The position numbers were made by a program, and so were the translations under genes. Below are positions 9,281 through 16,686 of a stretch of DNA of 64,000 nucleotides, one piece after another (positions within the stretch are counted from its first letter, which is position 1; each line of letters starts with the position of its first letter). This DNA comes from Naegleria gruberi (Eukaryota). Where the stretch lies: NCBI GenBank assembly GCA_000004985.1, contig GG738861.1; one strand, given 5' to 3'. A model generated the notes under the pieces. It did no database searches. It saw only the letters and a list, made by a program, of their open reading frames with translations, and was not told where the DNA came from.

Positions 9281-11040
9281 ATGAGTTATAATAGAACAAC
9301 CAATAATAATACTAACAACAATGAGGATAAATCCATCCGAGTTGGAAATAGACTCAATGCAAAGGTGGGTAAAATAGCATCAATGTACAATGCTCTTGAT
9401 AATGACTCTCACGCTACTATTAAGAGAAGAAATCCAATTAGTGGAACCACATCATCCAATGTAACAACCAAAGTTGTTTCAAGCACTGTGCAGACGAGAA
9501 CAGTGGCTAAGAAACCAACCCCAACCACACATCATTCTACTGTAAATTCAATGAAACCCTCTGCAGTTACGAATACAAACAAATCGAGAAATGTTGGTGC
9601 AGTTTCAAAACCTGTGGTAAAGACAACAACAAAAACAAGTACTGTGACAAGTAATATTGATAAGAGAGATGCCAATGATAGGAAAGCTGTTGAAAGGAAG
9701 GAGGTGAATGATAAGAAAGCAGAAGTAACAGTTGTCAATAATCATCAGAATAAGTATTTTGATAACTTTAAACCACAACCATTTCAATGTGATGCTTCAA
9801 GAATTAGAAAATATGAACCTAATTATTCTGAAATAGATAAGAGAGCTAGGAATACACCTAAATCTGAGGAAGCTTCTATTGAGAGACTTGCTCAATATTT
9901 AACTTCTCCCTACAATACTGTGGAAGAAAAAGCTAGGTCACTTTACATTTGGATTACATATAATATTGACTATGATGTAGATGGTCTGTATTCTGGAAAT
10001 GCACATTATACTGCAGACACATCCTTTAAGAGTAGAAGAGCTGTGTGCAGTGGATATTCTGATATTTTGAAAAAGATGTGTGACTGCTGTAAAATGGAGT
10101 GTGTTACAATATCAGGTTGTGCAAAAGGAGCTGGTTATGTGATTGGTGCGCCAGTAGCTTCAAATCATGCATGGTCTGCCATCAAAACTGAAGATGGTCA
10201 ATATAGATTGATCGAGTCAACTTGGGGATCAGGCTATCTTGCACCAAACAGTAGCTCAAAATGGGGATCAGCCTTTGAAAGAAGATTTGTGGATAGGTAC
10301 TTCTTTATGAGTCCATATGAATTCATTGCAGAGCATTTTCCAGACGATTCCAAGTGGCAACTCTTACCAAAAACTGTAACCAAGGAAGAATATGAAAAGA
10401 GAGTTGCTATTAAAGGCAACGGGTTCAGCAATGGATTGAGTTGTGTTTCCCATCCCTATGGGCTTTATACTTTAACTGATTCAAATGTTTGTGAAATTGT
10501 GATGAAAGTTTTTCCAGGAACTGAATCCTTGATCAATCTCTGTGAGGAAAAGAATGGAACAGCTCTCTGGGATGCTGTCAATGTCACATATTCTGACAAT
10601 AAGGACACAATTACAGCAAAGATTTGTTTCCCAAAAAAGAATGTAAAATATTCTGTCAGAGTGTTTGTTGGAGAAAAGGGAAGTAAATTAGAATGGGTTT
10701 GGAGCAAATGTTCACGGTGAGTCCATCAGCTAAGGTTGATGATAGAGGTTTTCCAACGATGTATTCAGACTTTGGTTCCCTTAATCTTTCCTTGGTCACT
10801 CCTAATTTTGGTAAATTATCTAAAAACTCAACATACACTCTAGAAATTGCAACCAAAGGAATGCCTATTGATTTAATGATAACAGGAACTAACTCTGGCA
10901 CTACAATGCACAGTCATAAGGGAGGAGGTAATTGTAAATGTTCATTCACAACCGGTGTTGACCCTAACGTTACTGTTTTTGGAAAAACTGATCCAAACAC
11001 AAGAAATTACAAAGGATTACTTGTTTATAAAGTTGGTTAA
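9281..11040 (+). CDS. Transglutaminase-like (papain-fold) domain protein with S/T/N-rich N-terminus; apparent -1 frameshift near 10687-10718
   Basis: CSGYSD ... NHAWSAIK ... ESTWGSG is a Cys/His/Asp-type transglutaminase-like core. The ORF frame changes by -1 between 10687 and 10718, and the downstream ORF 10693..11040 continues the protein. Confidence 0.55.
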
Positions 11041-12179
11041 TTCTTGAAATCAATTTCCTTACATATCCAATTCAATTTTTTGTTTAAATCTTCATCCATT
11101 GTTGAATAATCGTTCACATCTCTGAAATAAAAGTACACCTTCTTCTCAAAAGCATCAACTATTACAATGGATTGACTTTTAGACTTCCAGTTTGTAAATC
11201 TGGACTTGTAGTGTACAAACACTTCGTTAATAGTGCTTCTATCATAAAGATGAATATCAATCTTCCTTTCAAGACTATACTTCTCAGTAAGGTCTGTACA
11301 TGTTCTATATTTTTGAACTAGTTCGACTAATTCCTCGCTAAAATTATGGAGTGTCATATATTCATCCGTGAATAAATGAGCATCTTCTATTGAAATGAAG
11401 TTATTCTCATATTTGTTAATATTCCTTATATTTAAAAGACTGCTTAAGGTTTCCACAACCTGATCAGGAGTTTTATCATCTGTTACCATTTCTTTGCATA
11501 TTTGGTTTGTTCCCTCTTTAAGGCTTTTTACTTTTTGCCACAGATTATCATTTAAAAATGAATTTGAAATACAATGAGTCGAATTTTTGTCTAAACTTTG
11601 AATGATCAGTTTGTCTTGCAACTTTTCAGGCCATTGAGACAATGGTTTTCCCATTTCATTTCTAGCGAAAATTCTATTTGTAAAATAAATCAAGTCCTTA
11701 TTCATGTCAAACAAATTTCCACAAATAATTATAAAACCCTTTGTTTTTAGCCAATCCTTCTCGCATTCATTAATATGATCCATCAAATCATTATGCTTTA
11801 GTAAATCGATTAGGAGTTTGCTCCTAATTATTTTAGCTGGTTTTTTAGTTTCAGTAACACATTCCTCAGTTGCTACTAATTGATTATTTACATCCTTATT
11901 ATACAATTCTAGTGTTGGTTTGTTCGTTGAGTAATCATCATCCACGTTAGTTAGAATAGCCATATTTCCATTATCAATATTTATCCCCATCCAAGTATTT
12001 CCATACACCAAATCAGTAATACAGCAAATGCAATCATCAATTAATGAAAATGAAGAGGAAGTCGGTCTATCATATTCTTCATCTCGATTCGCCAACATAA
12101 TGAACGGATATCTTGCAGATGAAGTTGCTGCATCACAACAATTTGAACCAGTGGTAGTATGAAGAGCAACAATACACAT
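11037..12179 (-). CDS. TANGO2/NRDE-family protein
   Basis: Starts MCIVAL (N-terminal Cys after Met). ANRDEEYDRPT, NTWMGIN and AILTN match TANGO2 ANRDEFYSRPS, GGTWLGI and AALTN. Single exon. Confidence 0.7.
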   Translation of the reverse strand: MCIVALHTTTGSNCCDAATSSARYPFIMLANRDEEYDRPTSSSFSLIDDCICCITDLVYGNTWMGINIDNGNMAILTNVDDDYSTNKPTLELYNKDVNNQLVATEECVTETKKPAKIIRSKLLIDLLKHNDLMDHINECEKDWLKTKGFIIICGNLFDMNKDLIYFTNRIFARNEMGKPLSQWPEKLQDKLIIQSLDKNSTHCISNSFLNDNLWQKVKSLKEGTNQICKEMVTDDKTPDQVVETLSSLLNIRNINKYENNFISIEDAHLFTDEYMTLHNFSEELVELVQKYRTCTDLTEKYSLERKIDIHLYDRSTINEVFVHYKSRFTNWKSKSQSIVIVDAFEKKVYFYFRDVNDYSTMDEDLNKKLNWICKEIDFKN

Positions 12180-12772
12180 TTTTTTCAATTTTGATTTTGC
12201 AATCCCGAGTTCATCACATGTTCATTGTTCTTTAAATAATATAAAGCAGAACAAGGTTCATCATGATTCTTTACAATTTGTATTCTTTGGCAAATCTTAA
12301 GAAGATTATTTTATATTTATCAACACTTAATACATTAAAGAAGTTACAACATCTGTTGTTCCTAGTTGAATTCCTTAACTTTTGTTTGGAAAATATTAAG
12401 GATGTAATAGTTGTTCGTTGAAGATGAACATGTTCATCATCACTCTCATCTTAATATTTTCCAAATTATAAGTATCAGTTGCCTCGATTCCATAAGAGAT
12501 ATAGTAAGATTTTTTCTCATCAAAAGTTCGCAAAGAATCTGTGTACATTTTGCTCTCGATTGCAACCAACACTGGTTCCTAATCGAGACTTTTTTGGATA
12601 CCTGTAAGACTTTTTAGTGTAGAGGTGTAATGGGTCCTTTGAAAATAAACTGTAAAATTGAGGCAAGCCTTAACGAACTCTCTTCTACAATAGAGCGCCA
12701 AGTCTCTCCTAATAACAAACCACAAAAAAAGATACTAAGGCTGAAGGGAATATATTGAAAATTTTTATCATC

Positions 12773-14797
12773 ATGCCTTCTAATATTAATAATCGTGGTC
12801 ATAGTGAAGATGATAGTGATGAGAGGTTGATAAATTCAAGCCTTTCATTGGCTAAACCATCTAATAGAGCAGGTATTCAAACTGATGAGGATTTTGATGT
12901 TACAAGTCTTCATGAAACACAGGAAGCCATCAAAAAGAAATTGTTATTAGCAAAAATGGACTCACAGTATATGGACGACGATGATGATGTTGATAGTGAA
13001 GTAAAGTTTGAAAAGTTATCAACCAAGGGAAGAAGAAACCCAACAAAACTTGCAGAAATGAATTCCGCCTCAAATATGAGTCAAACTTCGTCATTCCAAA
13101 GAGGTGAAAAAAGAAGAGGTATTAGTAGAAGATTTGCCTCAACAATGAACTCTCGTAAAGGTCTAGATACTGGTAGTCAAATGGATACATCAAGCAATTA
13201 TAGTGATGATAACTCTGATACCCAAAGTCAACTTACCTCCGACAGTGGTGCCGATAGATCAACCTTAGATGATGAAGTTGCCTTCACTCATCAAGACGAC
13301 TTTGTACAGTTAAATAATTTGATCTCACAATTTAATATGTGTGGATTCCCAGTTTTAATCTTTGATAATTATGCAACAATAGAATATTTGAATCGAGAAG
13401 CAGAAGACCTCTTTGGTGTATTCTCCTTCTCTGTTTTGGGAGAACACGTAAGTGAGCTGTTCCTTGAAGATTCAGTTTGTGAAGTACAACAAGTCATTGA
13501 AGATTTTACAGGAAAACCAATCTTCAACAATTCTGATGGTGCATCTGTTACATCAATCAGTAAGGAAGTTGGAGCTGAAGAATTAAAAAAGAGAAAGGAT
13601 ACACTAATGAAAATCAGAATATTGAAAGGAAAAGCAACAATACTTAAAACATTTTTCTCTGTTAAAACAAGATTCATTACGATTCAAAAATTGGGAGTTG
13701 AACATTTTGTAGCATATATGGAAGTGATACAAGACAGTATTGAAGAAAAGAAAGAAATGGCTTTGAGAAAGGTTTACGAAGCCATCACAGATTTGTCAGT
13801 CATTCCAATTATTTCAATTTCTCAACAAGGTATTATTCAAACATTCAATACTGCATGCACTGCAACATTTGGATACTTGAAGAAAGATGTTCTAGGTAAA
13901 AATGTGAAAATGTTATGCAATGAAAAGGATAGACAAAAACATGATTACTATCTTCAAAGATATTTGAAAACAGGAGAGAAGAGAGTAGTAGATAAGACAA
14001 GATTTTTGAAAGCTAAAACAAAGAAGGCTAAATCAATCAAGATTGAATTAAGAGTTTCCGAAATTATTGATGTAGGAAGTAGTTCTTCATCATTTGTTGG
14101 TTTTATCAGAGATGTGAAGAACATGGTAACTAAGGAAGAACAATTGACAAGACTTGCAGACAAGATTTTCCCTAAGAATGTTGCTCAACGTATCAGTATG
14201 GGTCAACAAGTTATTGATATTTTCGAAATGTGTAGTGTGTTGTTCTGTGACATTGTGGGTTTCACAAAGATGTCGAATGGTAAAAGACCAGAAGAAGTTG
14301 TCTCAATTCTCCATGAAATTTTTGGTAGCTTTGATGATGTCTGTACAGCTTTCCAATTAGAAAAGATCAAGACAATTGGTGATTGTTACTTTTTAGCTAG
14401 TGGTGTTCCAAAATTCGTTCCTGAACATGCTGATAATATTGTAAAGGGAGGTTTAGCCATGATTCGTGTGATTCAACAATTTTGTAAAAAAGAAACCACT
14501 GTAGACCTAAAAGTAAGAATTGGTATTCACAGTAGTTGTGATATTATTGCTGGTGTTGTCGGTAAGACTAAACAAACCTATGACTTGTTCGGTAAAGGCA
14601 TAGAGGTTGCAGAAATTGTCGAATCAACAGGTAAAACCAATCAAGTGCAAATTAGTAACTCTACCTATCAATTACTGCAATCGGAGAAGCTTAAGAGTTT
14701 GTTTAGTGTTCATTATGAAGAAAAGGAAGAATTGCTTCTTGAAAAGGTTGGCAAAGTTGTTATTCCAGAAAGAACGTGGATTACCGATTTGCAATAA
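12773..14797 (+). CDS. PAS-PAS-class III nucleotidyl cyclase homology domain protein
   Basis: C-terminus carries FCDIVGFT ... KIKTIGDCYFLASG ... IGIHSSCDIIAGVVG ... YDLFGKGIEVAEIVES (cyclase homology domain). Two PAS-like segments lie upstream. Acidic S/D-rich N-terminus. The first true ATG is at 12773 (the track ORF starts at TTG). Confidence 0.7.
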   Translation: MPSNINNRGHSEDDSDERLINSSLSLAKPSNRAGIQTDEDFDVTSLHETQEAIKKKLLLAKMDSQYMDDDDDVDSEVKFEKLSTKGRRNPTKLAEMNSASNMSQTSSFQRGEKRRGISRRFASTMNSRKGLDTGSQMDTSSNYSDDNSDTQSQLTSDSGADRSTLDDEVAFTHQDDFVQLNNLISQFNMCGFPVLIFDNYATIEYLNREAEDLFGVFSFSVLGEHVSELFLEDSVCEVQQVIEDFTGKPIFNNSDGASVTSISKEVGAEELKKRKDTLMKIRILKGKATILKTFFSVKTRFITIQKLGVEHFVAYMEVIQDSIEEKKEMALRKVYEAITDLSVIPIISISQQGIIQTFNTACTATFGYLKKDVLGKNVKMLCNEKDRQKHDYYLQRYLKTGEKRVVDKTRFLKAKTKKAKSIKIELRVSEIIDVGSSSSSFVGFIRDVKNMVTKEEQLTRLADKIFPKNVAQRISMGQQVIDIFEMCSVLFCDIVGFTKMSNGKRPEEVVSILHEIFGSFDDVCTAFQLEKIKTIGDCYFLASGVPKFVPEHADNIVKGGLAMIRVIQQFCKKETTVDLKVRIGIHSSCDIIAGVVGKTKQTYDLFGKGIEVAEIVESTGKTNQVQISNSTYQLLQSEKLKSLFSVHYEEKEELLLEKVGKVVIPERTWITDLQ

Positions 14798-14921: not shown

Positions 14922-15218
14922 TTATTGTTGAGCAACTTGTTCAGTCTTTTCCTTTTCTTGGAATTGTCTGACGTAGATCTTTCTGGCATTGAATTCAGAT
15001 TCGTTGAACATGGTGATAGCCTTAGCAGCAGCTTCAGCAGTATCGAATTCAACAAAACCAATACCCTTGGATCTCTTAGTTTGAGCATCAGTGAAGATTC
15101 TAGCGTAGGTAACGTTACCAGCAGCAGAGAAGTGTTCCTTCAAAGCAGACCAGTTGGTTCTGTATGGCAAGTTAGAAACAAAAACCTTGGTGTCAGATGG
15201 TGCTTGGGTGGTGGACAT
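14922..15218 (-). CDS. Small single-RRM RNA-binding protein
   Basis: MSTTQAPSDTKVFVSNLPY...KGIGFVEF is an RNP-2/RNP-1 pattern. Codon usage is biased to C/T-ending preferred codons. A-rich start context. Confidence 0.7.
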   Translation of the reverse strand: MSTTQAPSDTKVFVSNLPYRTNWSALKEHFSAAGNVTYARIFTDAQTKRSKGIGFVEFDTAEAAAKAITMFNESEFNARKIYVRQFQEKEKTEQVAQQ

Positions 15219-16686
15219 TATGTTTGATGTATTTTTTTTCAACAAAAAGAGATTCAAAATATTCTTTTACACTCGCGAGTCAACGCAAGCAAACTTGCCG
15301 TGTTTGACTCAGAGCTTAACGGTGTCGTGTTCAACTCTCTCGTTTGATTGGTTGGAGATTAAACAGGGCGTTTGTTACTCATCTGATGGTGTACAAGCTC
15401 TCTTTGAAGAACAACGGTTGCTATTACAGCAACATTGTTTATTTGGATATCTACACAGCATGGGAGAGAGAGGTGAGCGAATAGAATATTAAAATAATGT
15501 GCATCACTGATATTGAATCATGAAATTGAATTTTAAAATTGATAATCAATTATTAAATGTATTTTAAATTTTCCAAGTGGTTCATCATGTCCAATAATTT
15601 TATACATTTCGACAATTTTAAAGGAAATTATCCAAAAGAACCTTAAGCTAAAGAAGATATCAATAACAAATAATTAAAAATCAAATAGATACTCTCGATT
15701 GAATATTTGAAAAATTCAGTAGATAGTAATGGCGGTTTTGATTAGATAAGACAATTTCCATCATTATTTGCCCATCCCGAAAGAGTACAAATTCAATCTT
15801 ATCCTCTCCATTCGGGACGCACCAGTCGATCAAATAGGCGCAATTATTGTCTTTGTCCACTCTCTTCTATCAATACAACTTCTTTGGAAGAAAACAAGTG
15901 AAAAAAAACAATCTATTTGCAATGTCTTATCTGAGAAGGAATATTAACAAGTCTCTTATTCCGATATTGATTGCCGGAAGCTATTATGCTAATTCATTAA
16001 GAACTCAATCAACATCTTCTTTTAATAAGAAGGAATTGGAATCAATTTCTTCCAACAATACTCAATCAACAAACAATATACAATCATCATCCTTCGCACC
16101 AACAATTCGGCCTTCTAATATACAATCCCTATCAGTGGAAAATCTACGTGAATCCATTCATAATGTTCTCACAACCATTCTTCATACCTTCATGAAGGTG
16201 CATTAAATTTTAGTCTCGCGCATCACACACTTGTAAATAAACACTTCAGAATGTAAATAAACACACACAGAATATTATACCCAACAACAATAATATTGCA
16301 TCAGATAAATATTAGTATTGAATGAGTCAAGCCACAGGATTGATTACAATTTCTATTGAAACTTCATCCTTGCCTTTTCCGAGGACCATCAAGGAGTGCT
16401 TAAATTTCGATTGACCTTCAAGTCCTTATCCATTTCCCTCCCAACAATACATCAACAACCATCACAAGTTACTTCCCTGAAGTTGCAAATGATCCATAAA
16501 TTACAAAGAGGAGGATCTTCCATCATGCATCACAACTTAAAAATCTCAACAAAAAAAAAAACTCTAGATATCAAAAGCCTTTTGTGCAAAAATCATTTAA
16601 AATTTTTAAACAAGTTCAAAAGAATCAATTTTTAAACGTTACCCAGACAAAAATACAAAGAAGAAATTACACAACTGCCGATCAAA

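What the first reader, a model, noticed from the sequence alone, without database searches (positions are those of the whole stretch)
12773..14797. Orphan PAS-PAS-cyclase with intact metal/substrate residues but substituted transition-state Asn/Arg
The C-terminal cyclase homology domain keeps both metal-binding Asp (FCDIVGFT; KTIGD). It also keeps the adenine-type specificity pair, the Lys of KTIGD and the Asp of YDLFG. By analogy these are K938/D1018 of mammalian AC C2. In the YDLFGKGIEVAEIVES segment the positions equivalent to N1025 and R1029 (the D+7 and D+11 positions of the canonical YDIWGxTVNxASRMES) are Glu and Ile. A homodimeric class III cyclase lacking both transition-state residues would be expected to be inactive or to need a complementing partner. 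A 2x PAS + CHD architecture of 675 aa does not match the classical Dictyostelium cyclases I know of (ACA, ACG, ACR, GCA, sGC).
Basis: partly seen in the sequence, partly recalled or inferred. Interest (0 to 1): 0.6.

Follow-up and report, generated by a model that had tools for sequence, protein, structure and literature searches.

The report
Half-site haem-PAS adenylate cyclase, Naegleria
This Naegleria gruberi gene joins a bacterial-type haem oxygen-sensor domain to a cyclic-AMP-making domain that carries only half of the catalytic residues, and a sister amoeba encodes a twin protein with exactly the missing half, so it probably works as one subunit of a two-part gas-sensing enzyme.

Summary
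ORF 12773-14797 (+) encodes a 674-aa PAS-PAS-cyclase with D493, D537, K533 and D604 intact. The Asn/Arg equivalents are E611 and I615, shown by pairwise, multiple, HMM and profile-profile alignment.

The gene is Naegleria gruberi NAEGRDRAFT_66293, not Dictyostelium, and it is not an orphan. N. gruberi has at least five paralogs, and N. fowleri, N. lovaniensis and Willaertia have orthologs. All members lack Asn/Arg and also the beta7-beta8 Lys in register. All keep the two metal Asp (one divergent N. lovaniensis member has Glu at the first), K533 and D604.

It has the proximal His390 and both pocket arginines.

Key new result: Willaertia magna encodes a protein of the same architecture with the reciprocal defect. 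Both metal Asp and the beta4 Arg are replaced, while Asn, Arg and Lys are kept.

Best reading: a C1/alpha-like, metal-donating subunit of a haem-PAS-regulated heterodimeric adenylate cyclase, analogous to soluble guanylate cyclase (sGC) alpha/beta. The N. gruberi partner, haem binding and activity are untested. New variant of a known kind; no description found.

The parts
12773..14797 (+). Single-exon CDS including the stop codon. It encodes 674 aa = N. gruberi NAEGRDRAFT_66293 / XP_002678578.1 / UniProt D2VBQ0.
12773..13282 (+). Low-complexity, poorly conserved N-terminal region (aa 1-170), predicted disordered.
   Evidence: alignment; pLDDT about 30; the model is poor overall
13112..13144 (+). 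Conserved basic/Ser motif RRGISRRFAST (aa 114-124) inside the disordered region. It may be a phosphorylation site (inference only).
13295..13732 (+). PAS1 (aa ~175-320). It is divergent and carries a ~30-aa insertion. The CGFP motif (aa 190-193) is invariant in the 10-sequence alignment. The ligand is unknown.
   Evidence: (PAS_4/PAS_8, partial), (no informative PDB relative; PAS-like secondary structure, low confidence)
13763..14122 (+). PAS2 (aa 331-450), a FixL-type haem-PAS domain. It is 36% identical to the RmFixL haem domain.
   Evidence: (E 1.1e-18 to 1d06)
13940..14002 (+). Haem-pocket segment HDYYLQRYLKTGEKRVVDKTR. H390 aligns with the proximal His (RmFixL H194 / BjFixL H200). R396 aligns with BjFixL R206 and R410 with BjFixL R220.
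   Evidence: this segment aligns without gaps; H390 and R396 invariant, R410 at least 90%
14129..14212 (+). Helical linker / cyclase-transducer-like element (aa 453-480, EEQLTRLADKIFPKNVAQRISMGQ). Its Pro467 is invariant.
14222..14788 (+). Class III cyclase homology domain (aa 484-672). It scores better against the C1 half of tmAC than against the C2 half.
   Evidence: E 2e-44; 107 against 63 bits
14249..14251 (+). D493, first metal-binding Asp (retained).
14381..14383 (+). D537, second metal-binding Asp (retained). K533 (14369-14371) is the adenine-type Lys.
14516..14518 (+). R582, the beta4 triphosphate-positioning Arg (retained).
   Evidence: residue role from PMC2576301
14582..14584 (+). 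D604, adenine-type Asp of YDLFG (retained).
14603..14605 (+). E611, at the position of the ribose-orienting Asn (AC2 N1025). The Asn is lost.
14615..14617 (+). I615, at the position of the transition-state Arg (AC2 R1029). The Arg is lost.
14741..14785 (+). Remodelled beta7-beta8 hairpin EKVGKVVIPERTWIT. E657 aligns with the canonical VKGKG Lys (K1065 equivalent). K658 lies one position downstream, and a 4-5-aa insertion follows.

Best explanation
The gene encodes a soluble sensor-cyclase of Naegleria gruberi. It consists of a disordered N-terminus, a divergent PAS1, a FixL-type haem-binding PAS2, a helical transducer linker and a class III cyclase domain.

The cyclase domain carries only the 'monomer A' half of a class III active site:
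- Present: both metal-binding Asp (D493, D537) and the beta4 Arg (R582).
- Lost: all three 'monomer B' catalytic residues. Asn is E611, Arg is I615, and the beta7-beta8 Lys is E657.

The protein is therefore most likely the C1/alpha-like, metal-donating subunit of a heterodimeric adenylate cyclase. The missing Asn/Arg/Lys would come from a second haem-PAS cyclase subunit of C2/beta type, or from a canonical one. The resulting dimer would have one complete ATP site and one degenerate pseudo-site. O2, or another diatomic gas, binding to the haem of PAS2 would be relayed through the linker helices and set the cAMP output.

Shown here: the architecture, the residue pattern, its conservation across the family, and a reciprocal partner-type protein in Willaertia.

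Inferred: haem binding, the identity of the gas, heterodimerisation, the presence of a partner in N. gruberi, and ATP as substrate (from K533/D604 here and the K/D pair of the Willaertia protein).
For: 1. Residue pattern. D493, D537, R582, K533 and D604 are retained. N is E, R is I and K is E, in four kinds of alignment. Residue roles are taken from PMC2576301.

2. The state is old and under selection.
- In the HMM alignment every heterolobosean family member has no Asn, Arg or Lys at the three monomer-B positions.
- These members come from N. gruberi, N. fowleri, N. lovaniensis, Willaertia and one environmental contig.
- Paralogs are 43-50% identical to the query and orthologs 58-65%.
- All keep D537, K533 and D604.
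- D493 and R582 are kept in all but the divergent N. lovaniensis P0204, which has Glu and Lys there. One N. fowleri gene model has a gap over D493; the full-length model has Asp.
- The family is monophyletic in 200 of 200 neighbour-joining (NJ) bootstraps.

3. The cyclase domain scores 107 bits against AC9 C1 and 63 bits against AC9 C2.

4. Reciprocal protein. Willaertia magna KAL9654048.1 (P0309) has the same PAS1, FixL-type PAS, linker and cyclase architecture. Its site pattern is G-E-K / K-D / N-R-K: both metal Asp and the beta4 Arg are replaced, and Asn, Arg and Lys are kept. Willaertia also has the ortholog of the window gene (P0005), with conserved neighbours (RRM and TANGO2 genes).

5. 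The same reciprocal patterns appear in the two-domain cyclases recovered in the same search, for example DDR-KD-TH against SSR-KD-NRK.

6. Haem-PAS. PAS2 hits the RmFixL haem domain at E 1.1e-18 with 36% identity, and its haem-pocket segment HDYYLQRYLKTGEKRVVDKTR aligns to RmFixL without gaps. H390 and R396 are invariant and R410 is near-invariant.
Against: - No C2-like partner has been shown in N. gruberi itself.
- P0309 is a single sequence from one genus. It groups with the canonical Percolomonas-type clade, not as sister of the C1-like family.
- K533 and D604 are invariant across the family. A pure C1 role does not require that. It could instead mean that both faces still bind nucleotide in a homodimer.
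- Haem binding, dimerisation and activity are all untested.
- The AlphaFold model was poor (mean pLDDT 54) and gives no structural support.
Confidence: 0.55

Rival explanations
1. Pseudo-cyclase. The protein forms homodimers, or dimers with its equally deficient paralogs, that bind metal-ATP but do not cyclise it at a useful rate. It would then act as a haem/gas-dependent nucleotide-binding module, a scaffold, or a dominant-negative regulator of other cyclases.
For: - All three monomer-B catalytic residues are lost.
- All five N. gruberi paralogs found share the defect, so they cannot complement one another.
- K533 and D604 stay invariant together with the metal Asp. That pattern fits nucleotide binding on both faces of a symmetric dimer.
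- No partner was found in N. gruberi.
Against: - Metal-binding residues usually decay in pseudoenzymes. Here they are conserved across the family.
- A protein with exactly the reciprocal defect exists in Willaertia. It would be equally functionless unless the two pair.
Confidence: 0.2
2. Non-canonical but active homodimeric adenylate cyclase. Catalysis would proceed without the Asn/Arg pair, using other residues such as E611 or the shifted K658, or would simply be slow.
For: - The full substrate- and metal-binding set is conserved on one chain.
- K658 is near-invariant one position from the canonical Lys.
- From my own recollection of the mutagenesis literature (AC2 C2 N1025/R1029; Rv1625c N372/R376), single mutants at these positions lose activity strongly but not absolutely.
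Against: - The Arg position is always hydrophobic or small (I/L/M/S).
- The Asn position varies (E/A/T/S/L), so no conserved substitute residue is evident.
- I know of no natural class III homodimer that is active without both residues (own knowledge; I made no systematic literature check).
- All 252 fully canonical cyclase domains in the set keep N, R and K.
Confidence: 0.12
3. One reading: an orphan, atypical Dictyostelium cyclase.
For: Only the low G+C content (about 33%) and the amoeba-like low-complexity N-terminus.
Against: - The protein is 100% identical to a Naegleria gruberi protein on a 507-kb scaffold.
- The family has members in three Naegleria species and in Willaertia.
Confidence: 0.01
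4. PAS2 is not a haem sensor. It would be a FixL-like PAS fold that has lost its cofactor and serves only for dimerisation or for another ligand.
For: - Haem binding was not measured.
- The H-NOX domain of sGC alpha is a precedent for a cofactor-less twin (PMC2576301).
- Two paralogs (P0008, P0009) have deletions just after the His.
Against: - The proximal His and both pocket Arg are conserved across the family, and the His and both Arg are also present in P0309.
- The haem-pocket segment aligns with FixL without gaps.
- PMC10468136 reports the F-alpha His as the primary determinant of haem binding in the FixL/DosP cluster.
Confidence: 0.12

Closest known systems
Soluble guanylate cyclase alpha1/beta1 (animal NO receptor)
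   Same: - Two homologous subunits, each with a sensor domain, a PAS-type domain, a helical linker and a class III cyclase domain.
- The catalytic residues are split between the subunits, giving one active site and one pseudo-site.
- A haem senses a diatomic gas.
   Different: - The sensor here is a FixL-type haem-PAS, not H-NOX. Pfam finds no H-NOX domain.
- The base-recognition pair is K/D (adenine), not E/C (guanine).
- Both putative subunits keep the haem His.
- The lineage is Heterolobosea. The cyclase domains nest among haem-PAS cyclases of protists, so the split appears to have arisen independently.
Mammalian membrane adenylate cyclase C1 domain (for example AC9 C1, PDB 7pd4; AC5 C1, 1cjk)
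   Same: - It is the best-scoring solved relative.
- It keeps the two metal Asp, the beta4 Arg, and the K and D positions.
- It lacks Asn/Arg: T/H in AC2b C1. The AC9 C1 alignment shows Asn kept and Arg replaced by Leu.
   Different: - In tmAC, C1 and C2 sit on one polypeptide with 12 transmembrane helices and are regulated by G proteins.
- Here the domain is alone on a soluble PAS protein, so any partner must be a separate gene product.
FixL (Sinorhizobium/Bradyrhizobium) and DosP/EcDOS haem-PAS O2 sensors
   Same: - PAS2 is 34-36% identical to the FixL haem domains.
- It has the proximal His, the propionate Arg and the distal Arg.
   Different: - The output is a class III cyclase, not a histidine kinase or an EAL/GGDEF domain.
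- The host is a eukaryote.
HemAC-Lm, the globin-coupled O2-sensing adenylate cyclase of Leishmania (Sen Santara et al. 2013, cited in PMC7719234)
   Same: - A eukaryotic (Discoba) soluble adenylate cyclase.
- It is controlled by a haem O2 sensor.
   Different: - The sensor there is a globin, not a PAS domain.
- To my knowledge that enzyme is catalytically self-sufficient.
Engineered complementing mutants of the mycobacterial Rv1625c homodimer (Guo et al. 2001; own knowledge)
   Same: A metal-Asp mutant and an Asn/Arg mutant are each inactive but regain activity when combined. This is the same logic as the natural C1-like and C2-like pair proposed here.
   Different: Those are laboratory mutants of one gene. 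Here the two states are natural, conserved paralogs.
Canonical haem-PAS cyclases of other protists: Percolomonas cosmopolitus A0A7S1KT32, Andalucia godoyi ANDGO_07835, diatom Conticribra weissflogii KAL7466838
   Same: - FixL-type PAS domain(s), linker and class III cyclase domain.
- The Percolomonas-type proteins belong to the same wider clade as the Naegleria family; the Andalucia and diatom proteins fall outside it.
   Different: - They keep the full D-D-R-K-D-N-R-K set and are predicted to be self-sufficient homodimers.
- None appears to have been characterised.

Membership tests
Class III nucleotidyl cyclase catalytic domain (Pfam PF00211) | Significant match to the family profile | tested here: met
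   151.7 bits against a cut-off of 21.9, E 2e-44. hhalign probability is 100% against a canonical profile.
Class III nucleotidyl cyclase catalytic domain (Pfam PF00211) | Two metal-binding Asp and the beta4 triphosphate Arg (monomer-A residues) | tested here: met
   D493, D537 and R582 are present. They are conserved across the family except in the divergent P0204, which has Glu at the first Asp and Lys at the Arg.
Class III nucleotidyl cyclase catalytic domain (Pfam PF00211) | Ribose-orienting Asn and transition-state Arg in helix alpha4 (monomer-B residues) | tested here: not met
   E611 and I615 occupy these positions.
Class III nucleotidyl cyclase catalytic domain (Pfam PF00211) | Lys of the beta7-beta8 loop (VKGKG) | tested here: not met
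   E657 sits in the Lys column. K658 lies one position downstream and the hairpin carries an insertion. A one-residue shift cannot be excluded.
Class III nucleotidyl cyclase catalytic domain (Pfam PF00211) | Cyclase activity | not testable with these tools
   Needs a recombinant enzyme assay.
C1/alpha-type subunit of a heterodimeric class III cyclase | Monomer-A residues present and monomer-B residues absent | tested here: met
   The site pattern is DDR-KD-EIE, against DDR-KD-NRK in 252 canonical domains.
C1/alpha-type subunit of a heterodimeric class III cyclase | A complementary (C2/beta-type) subunit encoded in the same genome | tested here: inconclusive
   It was found in Willaertia magna (P0309, pattern GEK-KD-NRK). 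It could not be searched for in N. gruberi. The window has no second cyclase domain.
C1/alpha-type subunit of a heterodimeric class III cyclase | Physical heterodimer with one active site | not testable with these tools
   Needs co-expression or a multimer model.
FixL-type haem-binding PAS domain | Sequence relationship to solved FixL/DosP haem domains | tested here: met
   E 1.1e-18 to 1d06. All FixL and DosP entries rank above other PAS domains. Identity is 34-36%.
FixL-type haem-binding PAS domain | Proximal His on the F-alpha helix | tested here: met
   H390 aligns with the FixL proximal His and is invariant in the family. PMC10468136 names this His as the main determinant of haem binding.
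FixL-type haem-binding PAS domain | Pocket arginines (BjFixL R206 and R220) | tested here: met
   R396 is invariant and R410 is at least 90% conserved. The residue roles come from my own knowledge of FixL structures.
FixL-type haem-binding PAS domain | Haem b binding and a ligand-dependent switch | not testable with these tools
   Needs spectroscopy of the recombinant domain.
Soluble guanylate cyclase (H-NOX type) | N-terminal H-NOX domain and a guanine-type E/C pair | tested here: not met
   Pfam finds no H-NOX match. The base-recognition pair is K533/D604, the adenine type. The protein works like sGC but is not a member.
Dictyostelid cyclases (ACA, ACG, ACR, GCA, sGC) | Encoded in a dictyostelid genome or orthologous to one of these | tested here: not met
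   The protein is 100% identical to a Naegleria gruberi protein.

The most novel reading that the evidence does not exclude
Heterolobosean amoebae, including the pathogen N. fowleri, independently evolved an sGC-like two-subunit gas receptor. It would be built from FixL-type haem-PAS domains and a split class III active site. A multigene set of alpha-like sensor subunits (at least five in N. gruberi) would share beta-like or canonical partners, giving combinatorial O2-, NO- or CO-dependent cAMP signalling. This would be the first FixL-type haem-PAS cyclase system described, and a direct O2-sensing route in a facultatively anaerobic eukaryote.
Probability: 0.4. Interest if true: 0.75.

Novelty: new variant of a known kind. 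Interest (0 to 1): 0.6.

Why it matters
- Direct haem-based O2 sensing coupled to cyclic nucleotides is known in eukaryotes only for H-NOX guanylate cyclases and the Leishmania globin-cyclase.
- A FixL-type haem-PAS cyclase family, with naturally split catalytic residues, would be a third solution that evolved independently.
- It would also be a clean natural example of how obligate heterodimeric cyclases arise from homodimers by reciprocal loss.
- Naegleria moves between oxic and micro-oxic habitats and between amoeba, flagellate and cyst forms. N. fowleri carries orthologs, so the system could be physiologically and medically relevant.
- The prediction is directly testable with two recombinant proteins.

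Tried and rejected
- AlphaFold2 on the 10-sequence family alignment gave mean pLDDT 54 and pTM 0.34. I judged it too poor for fold searches or residue-level claims and did not use it beyond secondary structure.
- I looked for a partner next to the gene.
  - tblastn of the protein against the window found no second cyclase domain.
  - The 10-kb flanks of the Willaertia ortholog and of P0309 hold no cyclase.
  - The flanks of the environmental ortholog L002 hold none either.
- N. gruberi paralog loci P0008 and P0011 are not indexed.
- Metagenome scans gave nothing useful.
  - The scan with P0309 found nothing.
  - The PAS-linker alignment returned 12 loci with FixL-like PAS domains but no cyclase domain.
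- The word-indexed homolog searches proved lossy. One search missed three Naegleria paralogs and P0309, probably because the low-complexity N-terminus swamped the candidate list. Absence from those lists is therefore not evidence of absence.
- PAS1 on its own has no informative solved relative.
- Literature searches for the locus tag and accessions, for Naegleria with FixL, and for haem-PAS with cyclase found no description. The N. gruberi genome paper is not in the held library.
- I looked for a family-specific basic residue that could replace the Arg. K608 is not conserved, and K600 is also present in canonical domains.
- tRNA and tandem-repeat scans of the window showed nothing relevant.
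Full report
**What is there**

An uninterrupted ORF runs from the ATG at 12773 to the TAA ending at 14797 on the + strand. It encodes 674 aa. The product is 100% identical to the annotated Naegleria gruberi protein NAEGRDRAFT_66293 (XP_002678578.1, EFC45834.1, UniProt D2VBQ0), which lies on a 507-kb scaffold. The window is therefore Naegleria, a heterolobosean, and not Dictyostelium. Its G+C of about 33% fits.

Pfam finds three things:
- a class III cyclase domain at aa 484-642 (E 2e-44);
- a strong PAS at aa 335-448;
- a weak, partial PAS at aa 187-239.

The first ~170 residues are low-complexity and unconserved, apart from an RRGISRRFAST motif. The flanking genes are a TANGO2 homolog (11037-12188, - strand) and a small RRM protein (14922-15257, - strand). 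The same two gene families lie beside the Willaertia magna ortholog, which supports orthology.

**The catalytic residues**

D493 (FCDIVGFT), K533 and D537 (KTIGD), R582 (VRIGIH) and D604 (YDLFG) are all present.

- phmmer aligns YDLFGKGIEVAEIVES without gaps to YDIWGDTVNIASRMDT of AC9 C2.
- A MAFFT alignment of 134 cyclase domains gives D-K-D-R-D-N-R for about 120 nearest bacterial homologs. All ten family members give D-K-D-R-D-[E/A/T]-[I/L/M].
- hhalign of the family profile against the canonical profile has 100% probability and no gap in this segment.

The third residue normally supplied by the same face, the Lys of the beta7-beta8 'VKGKG' loop, is also gone in register. E657 sits in its column, K658 follows it, and the hairpin carries an insertion.

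Winger et al. (PMC2576301) divide the class III active site between two monomers. Monomer A supplies the two metal Asp and the beta4 Arg. Monomer B supplies Asn, Arg and the loop Lys. In those terms the window protein has a complete A face and an empty B face. Consistently, it scores 107 bits against the C1 half of AC9 and 63 bits against the C2 half.

**Not an orphan, and not decaying**

The first homolog search found:
- orthologs in N. fowleri, N. lovaniensis and Willaertia magna, plus one environmental contig (58-65% identity);
- paralogs at 43-50% identity.

An exhaustive phmmer search added two further N. gruberi paralogs, NAEGRDRAFT_48447 and 72607, and a divergent N. lovaniensis member. 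N. gruberi thus has at least five: 66293, 82217, 50144, 48447 and 72607.

Every member lacks Asn and Arg. The replacements are E/A/T/S/L and I/L/M/S. Every member keeps D537, K533 and D604. D493 and R582 are also kept, except in the divergent N. lovaniensis P0204, which has Glu and Lys there. One N. fowleri gene model has a gap over D493, but the full-length model P0427 has Asp.

The family is monophyletic in 200 of 200 NJ bootstraps. The loss is therefore ancient, predates the Naegleria/Willaertia split and several duplications, and coexists with strong conservation of the metal site. That pattern is not what a dying enzyme looks like.

**The sensor**

PAS2 on its own hits the haem domains of FixL first. 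The scores are E 1.1e-18 for RmFixL (1d06) and 2e-15 for BjFixL. DosP/EcDOS follow, and all rank above any other PAS domain. Identity is 34-36%.

The haem-pocket segment aligns without gaps: KHDYYLQRYLKTGEKRVVDKTRF against [23 protein letters not shown].
- H390 is the proximal His.
- R396 and R410 match the two pocket arginines. By my own knowledge of FixL structures these are BjFixL R206 and R220.
- H390 and R396 are invariant in the family, and R410 is at least 90% conserved.

A large survey of PAS domains reports this F-alpha His as the primary determinant of haem binding in the FixL/DosP cluster (PMC10468136). PAS2 is therefore very probably a haem-binding gas sensor.

PAS1 is divergent. 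It carries an insertion and an invariant CGFP motif, and it has no informative solved relative. Between PAS2 and the cyclase domain lies a helical element with an invariant Pro, RLADKIFPKNVAQR. It aligns with the linker of bacterial class IIIa/b cyclases.

**Wider family**

The exhaustive search shows that FixL-type-PAS plus cyclase fusions exist in several protists with a fully canonical catalytic set:
- Percolomonas cosmopolitus (Heterolobosea);
- Andalucia godoyi (a jakobid);
- the diatom Conticribra weissflogii, with seven PAS domains;
- several unnamed environmental sequences.

One environmental eukaryote-like contig carries two tandem members that also lack Asn/Arg.

In an NJ tree the Naegleria/Willaertia family, that tandem pair and the Percolomonas-type canonical clade form one group (184 of 200 bootstraps). 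The ancestor was therefore probably a canonical homodimer.

I found no paper describing any of these proteins, the locus tag, or a haem-PAS cyclase. The held library is limited, however, and the Naegleria genome paper is not in it.

**The reciprocal protein**

A search seeded with the Percolomonas protein returned Willaertia magna KAL9654048.1 (P0309, 644 aa). Its architecture is the same: a PAS1 with the C-x-P motif, a FixL-type PAS (KHNWYVQRYIKTGVKRVVDKTR), the linker and a cyclase domain. Its catalytic pattern is the mirror image.

| Position | Window protein | Willaertia P0309 |
|---|---|---|
| First metal Asp | D493 | Gly (MFCGIENFT) |
| Second metal Asp | D537 | Glu (KTIGENYM) |
| Beta4 Arg | R582 | Lys (IKVGIATG) |
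| Adenine-type Lys and Asp | K533, D604 | K and D kept |
| Ribose-orienting Asn | E611 | Asn kept (YDVWGSTVNFASRMQST) |
| Transition-state Arg | I615 | Arg kept |
| Beta7-beta8 loop Lys | E657 | Lys kept (VKG) |

Willaertia thus encodes both an A-only protein, the ortholog of the window gene, and a B-only protein. Neither can form a complete site with itself, and together they form exactly one. Two-domain cyclases recovered in the same search show the same reciprocal signature, for example DDR-KD-TH against SSR-KD-NRK. P0309 groups with the canonical Percolomonas-type clade (136 of 200 bootstraps). This suggests that the two deficient lineages arose on either side of an old duplication.

**Mechanism proposed**

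NAEGRDRAFT_66293 is the C1/alpha-like, metal-donating subunit of a heterodimeric adenylate cyclase. ATP is inferred as substrate from the K/D pairs. A C2/beta-like or canonical haem-PAS subunit would supply Asn, Arg and Lys. Gas binding at the PAS2 haem would be relayed through the linker helices. I put this at about 0.55.

The main weakness is that no partner has been demonstrated in N. gruberi.

Two rivals remain open:
- The family may be a non-catalytic nucleotide-binding pseudo-cyclase. The invariance of K533 and D604 is somewhat more than a pure C1 role demands.
- It may be a slow, non-canonical homodimeric enzyme.

**Verdict**

It is a new variant of known kinds (haem-based gas-sensor cyclases and split-site class III cyclases). 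It appears undescribed and is readily testable.

Noticed in passing
proteins P0139-P0186 and others; no window coordinates: Giant proteins of 1.7-5.5 kaa from unnamed Logan/ENA assemblies match the FixL-type PAS2 query 13 or more times in tandem. The two checked with Pfam also have an N-terminal TPR_TmcB region. Bodo saltans P0012 carries four such domains, whose His/Arg motif I did check. The organism and function of the giant proteins are unknown.
   Followed up: partly
N. gruberi NAEGRDRAFT_82220 (P0011), on the same scaffold as paralog NAEGRDRAFT_82217: This protein has the same PAS1 and PAS2-like module. It is followed by a GH5 cellulase-like region (Pfam E 8e-7) instead of a cyclase domain. 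It is either a gene-model fusion or a PAS-regulated glycosidase.
   Followed up: partly
window 13112-13144 (+): A conserved RRGISRRFAST motif sits in the otherwise unconserved, low-complexity N-terminus of the family. It looks like a basophilic-kinase phosphorylation site.
   Followed up: no
window 11037-12188 (-) and 14922-15257 (-); L001 13517-16547: A TANGO2 homolog and a small RRM protein flank the cyclase gene. The same two gene families lie next to the Willaertia ortholog, so microsynteny is kept across genera.
   Followed up: yes
L003 536-6056: An environmental eukaryote-like contig with RasGEF genes carries two tandem haem-PAS cyclases, P0211 and P0231. Both lack Asn/Arg (E,E and I,E). 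A PAS-only gene lies between them.
   Followed up: partly
window 40000-64000: The right-hand part of the window is markedly more AT-rich (G+C 22-30% against 31-35%) and holds most of the AT-rich tandem repeats.
   Followed up: no
window 14309-14311 (H514): The family has several sequence signatures next to the lost residues:
- His replaces the canonical Asn in the alpha2 'LN(E/D)xF' motif (LHEIF).
- Phe replaces the canonical Trp in YDLFG.
- There is a one-residue insertion in GIHSSxD.
   Followed up: no
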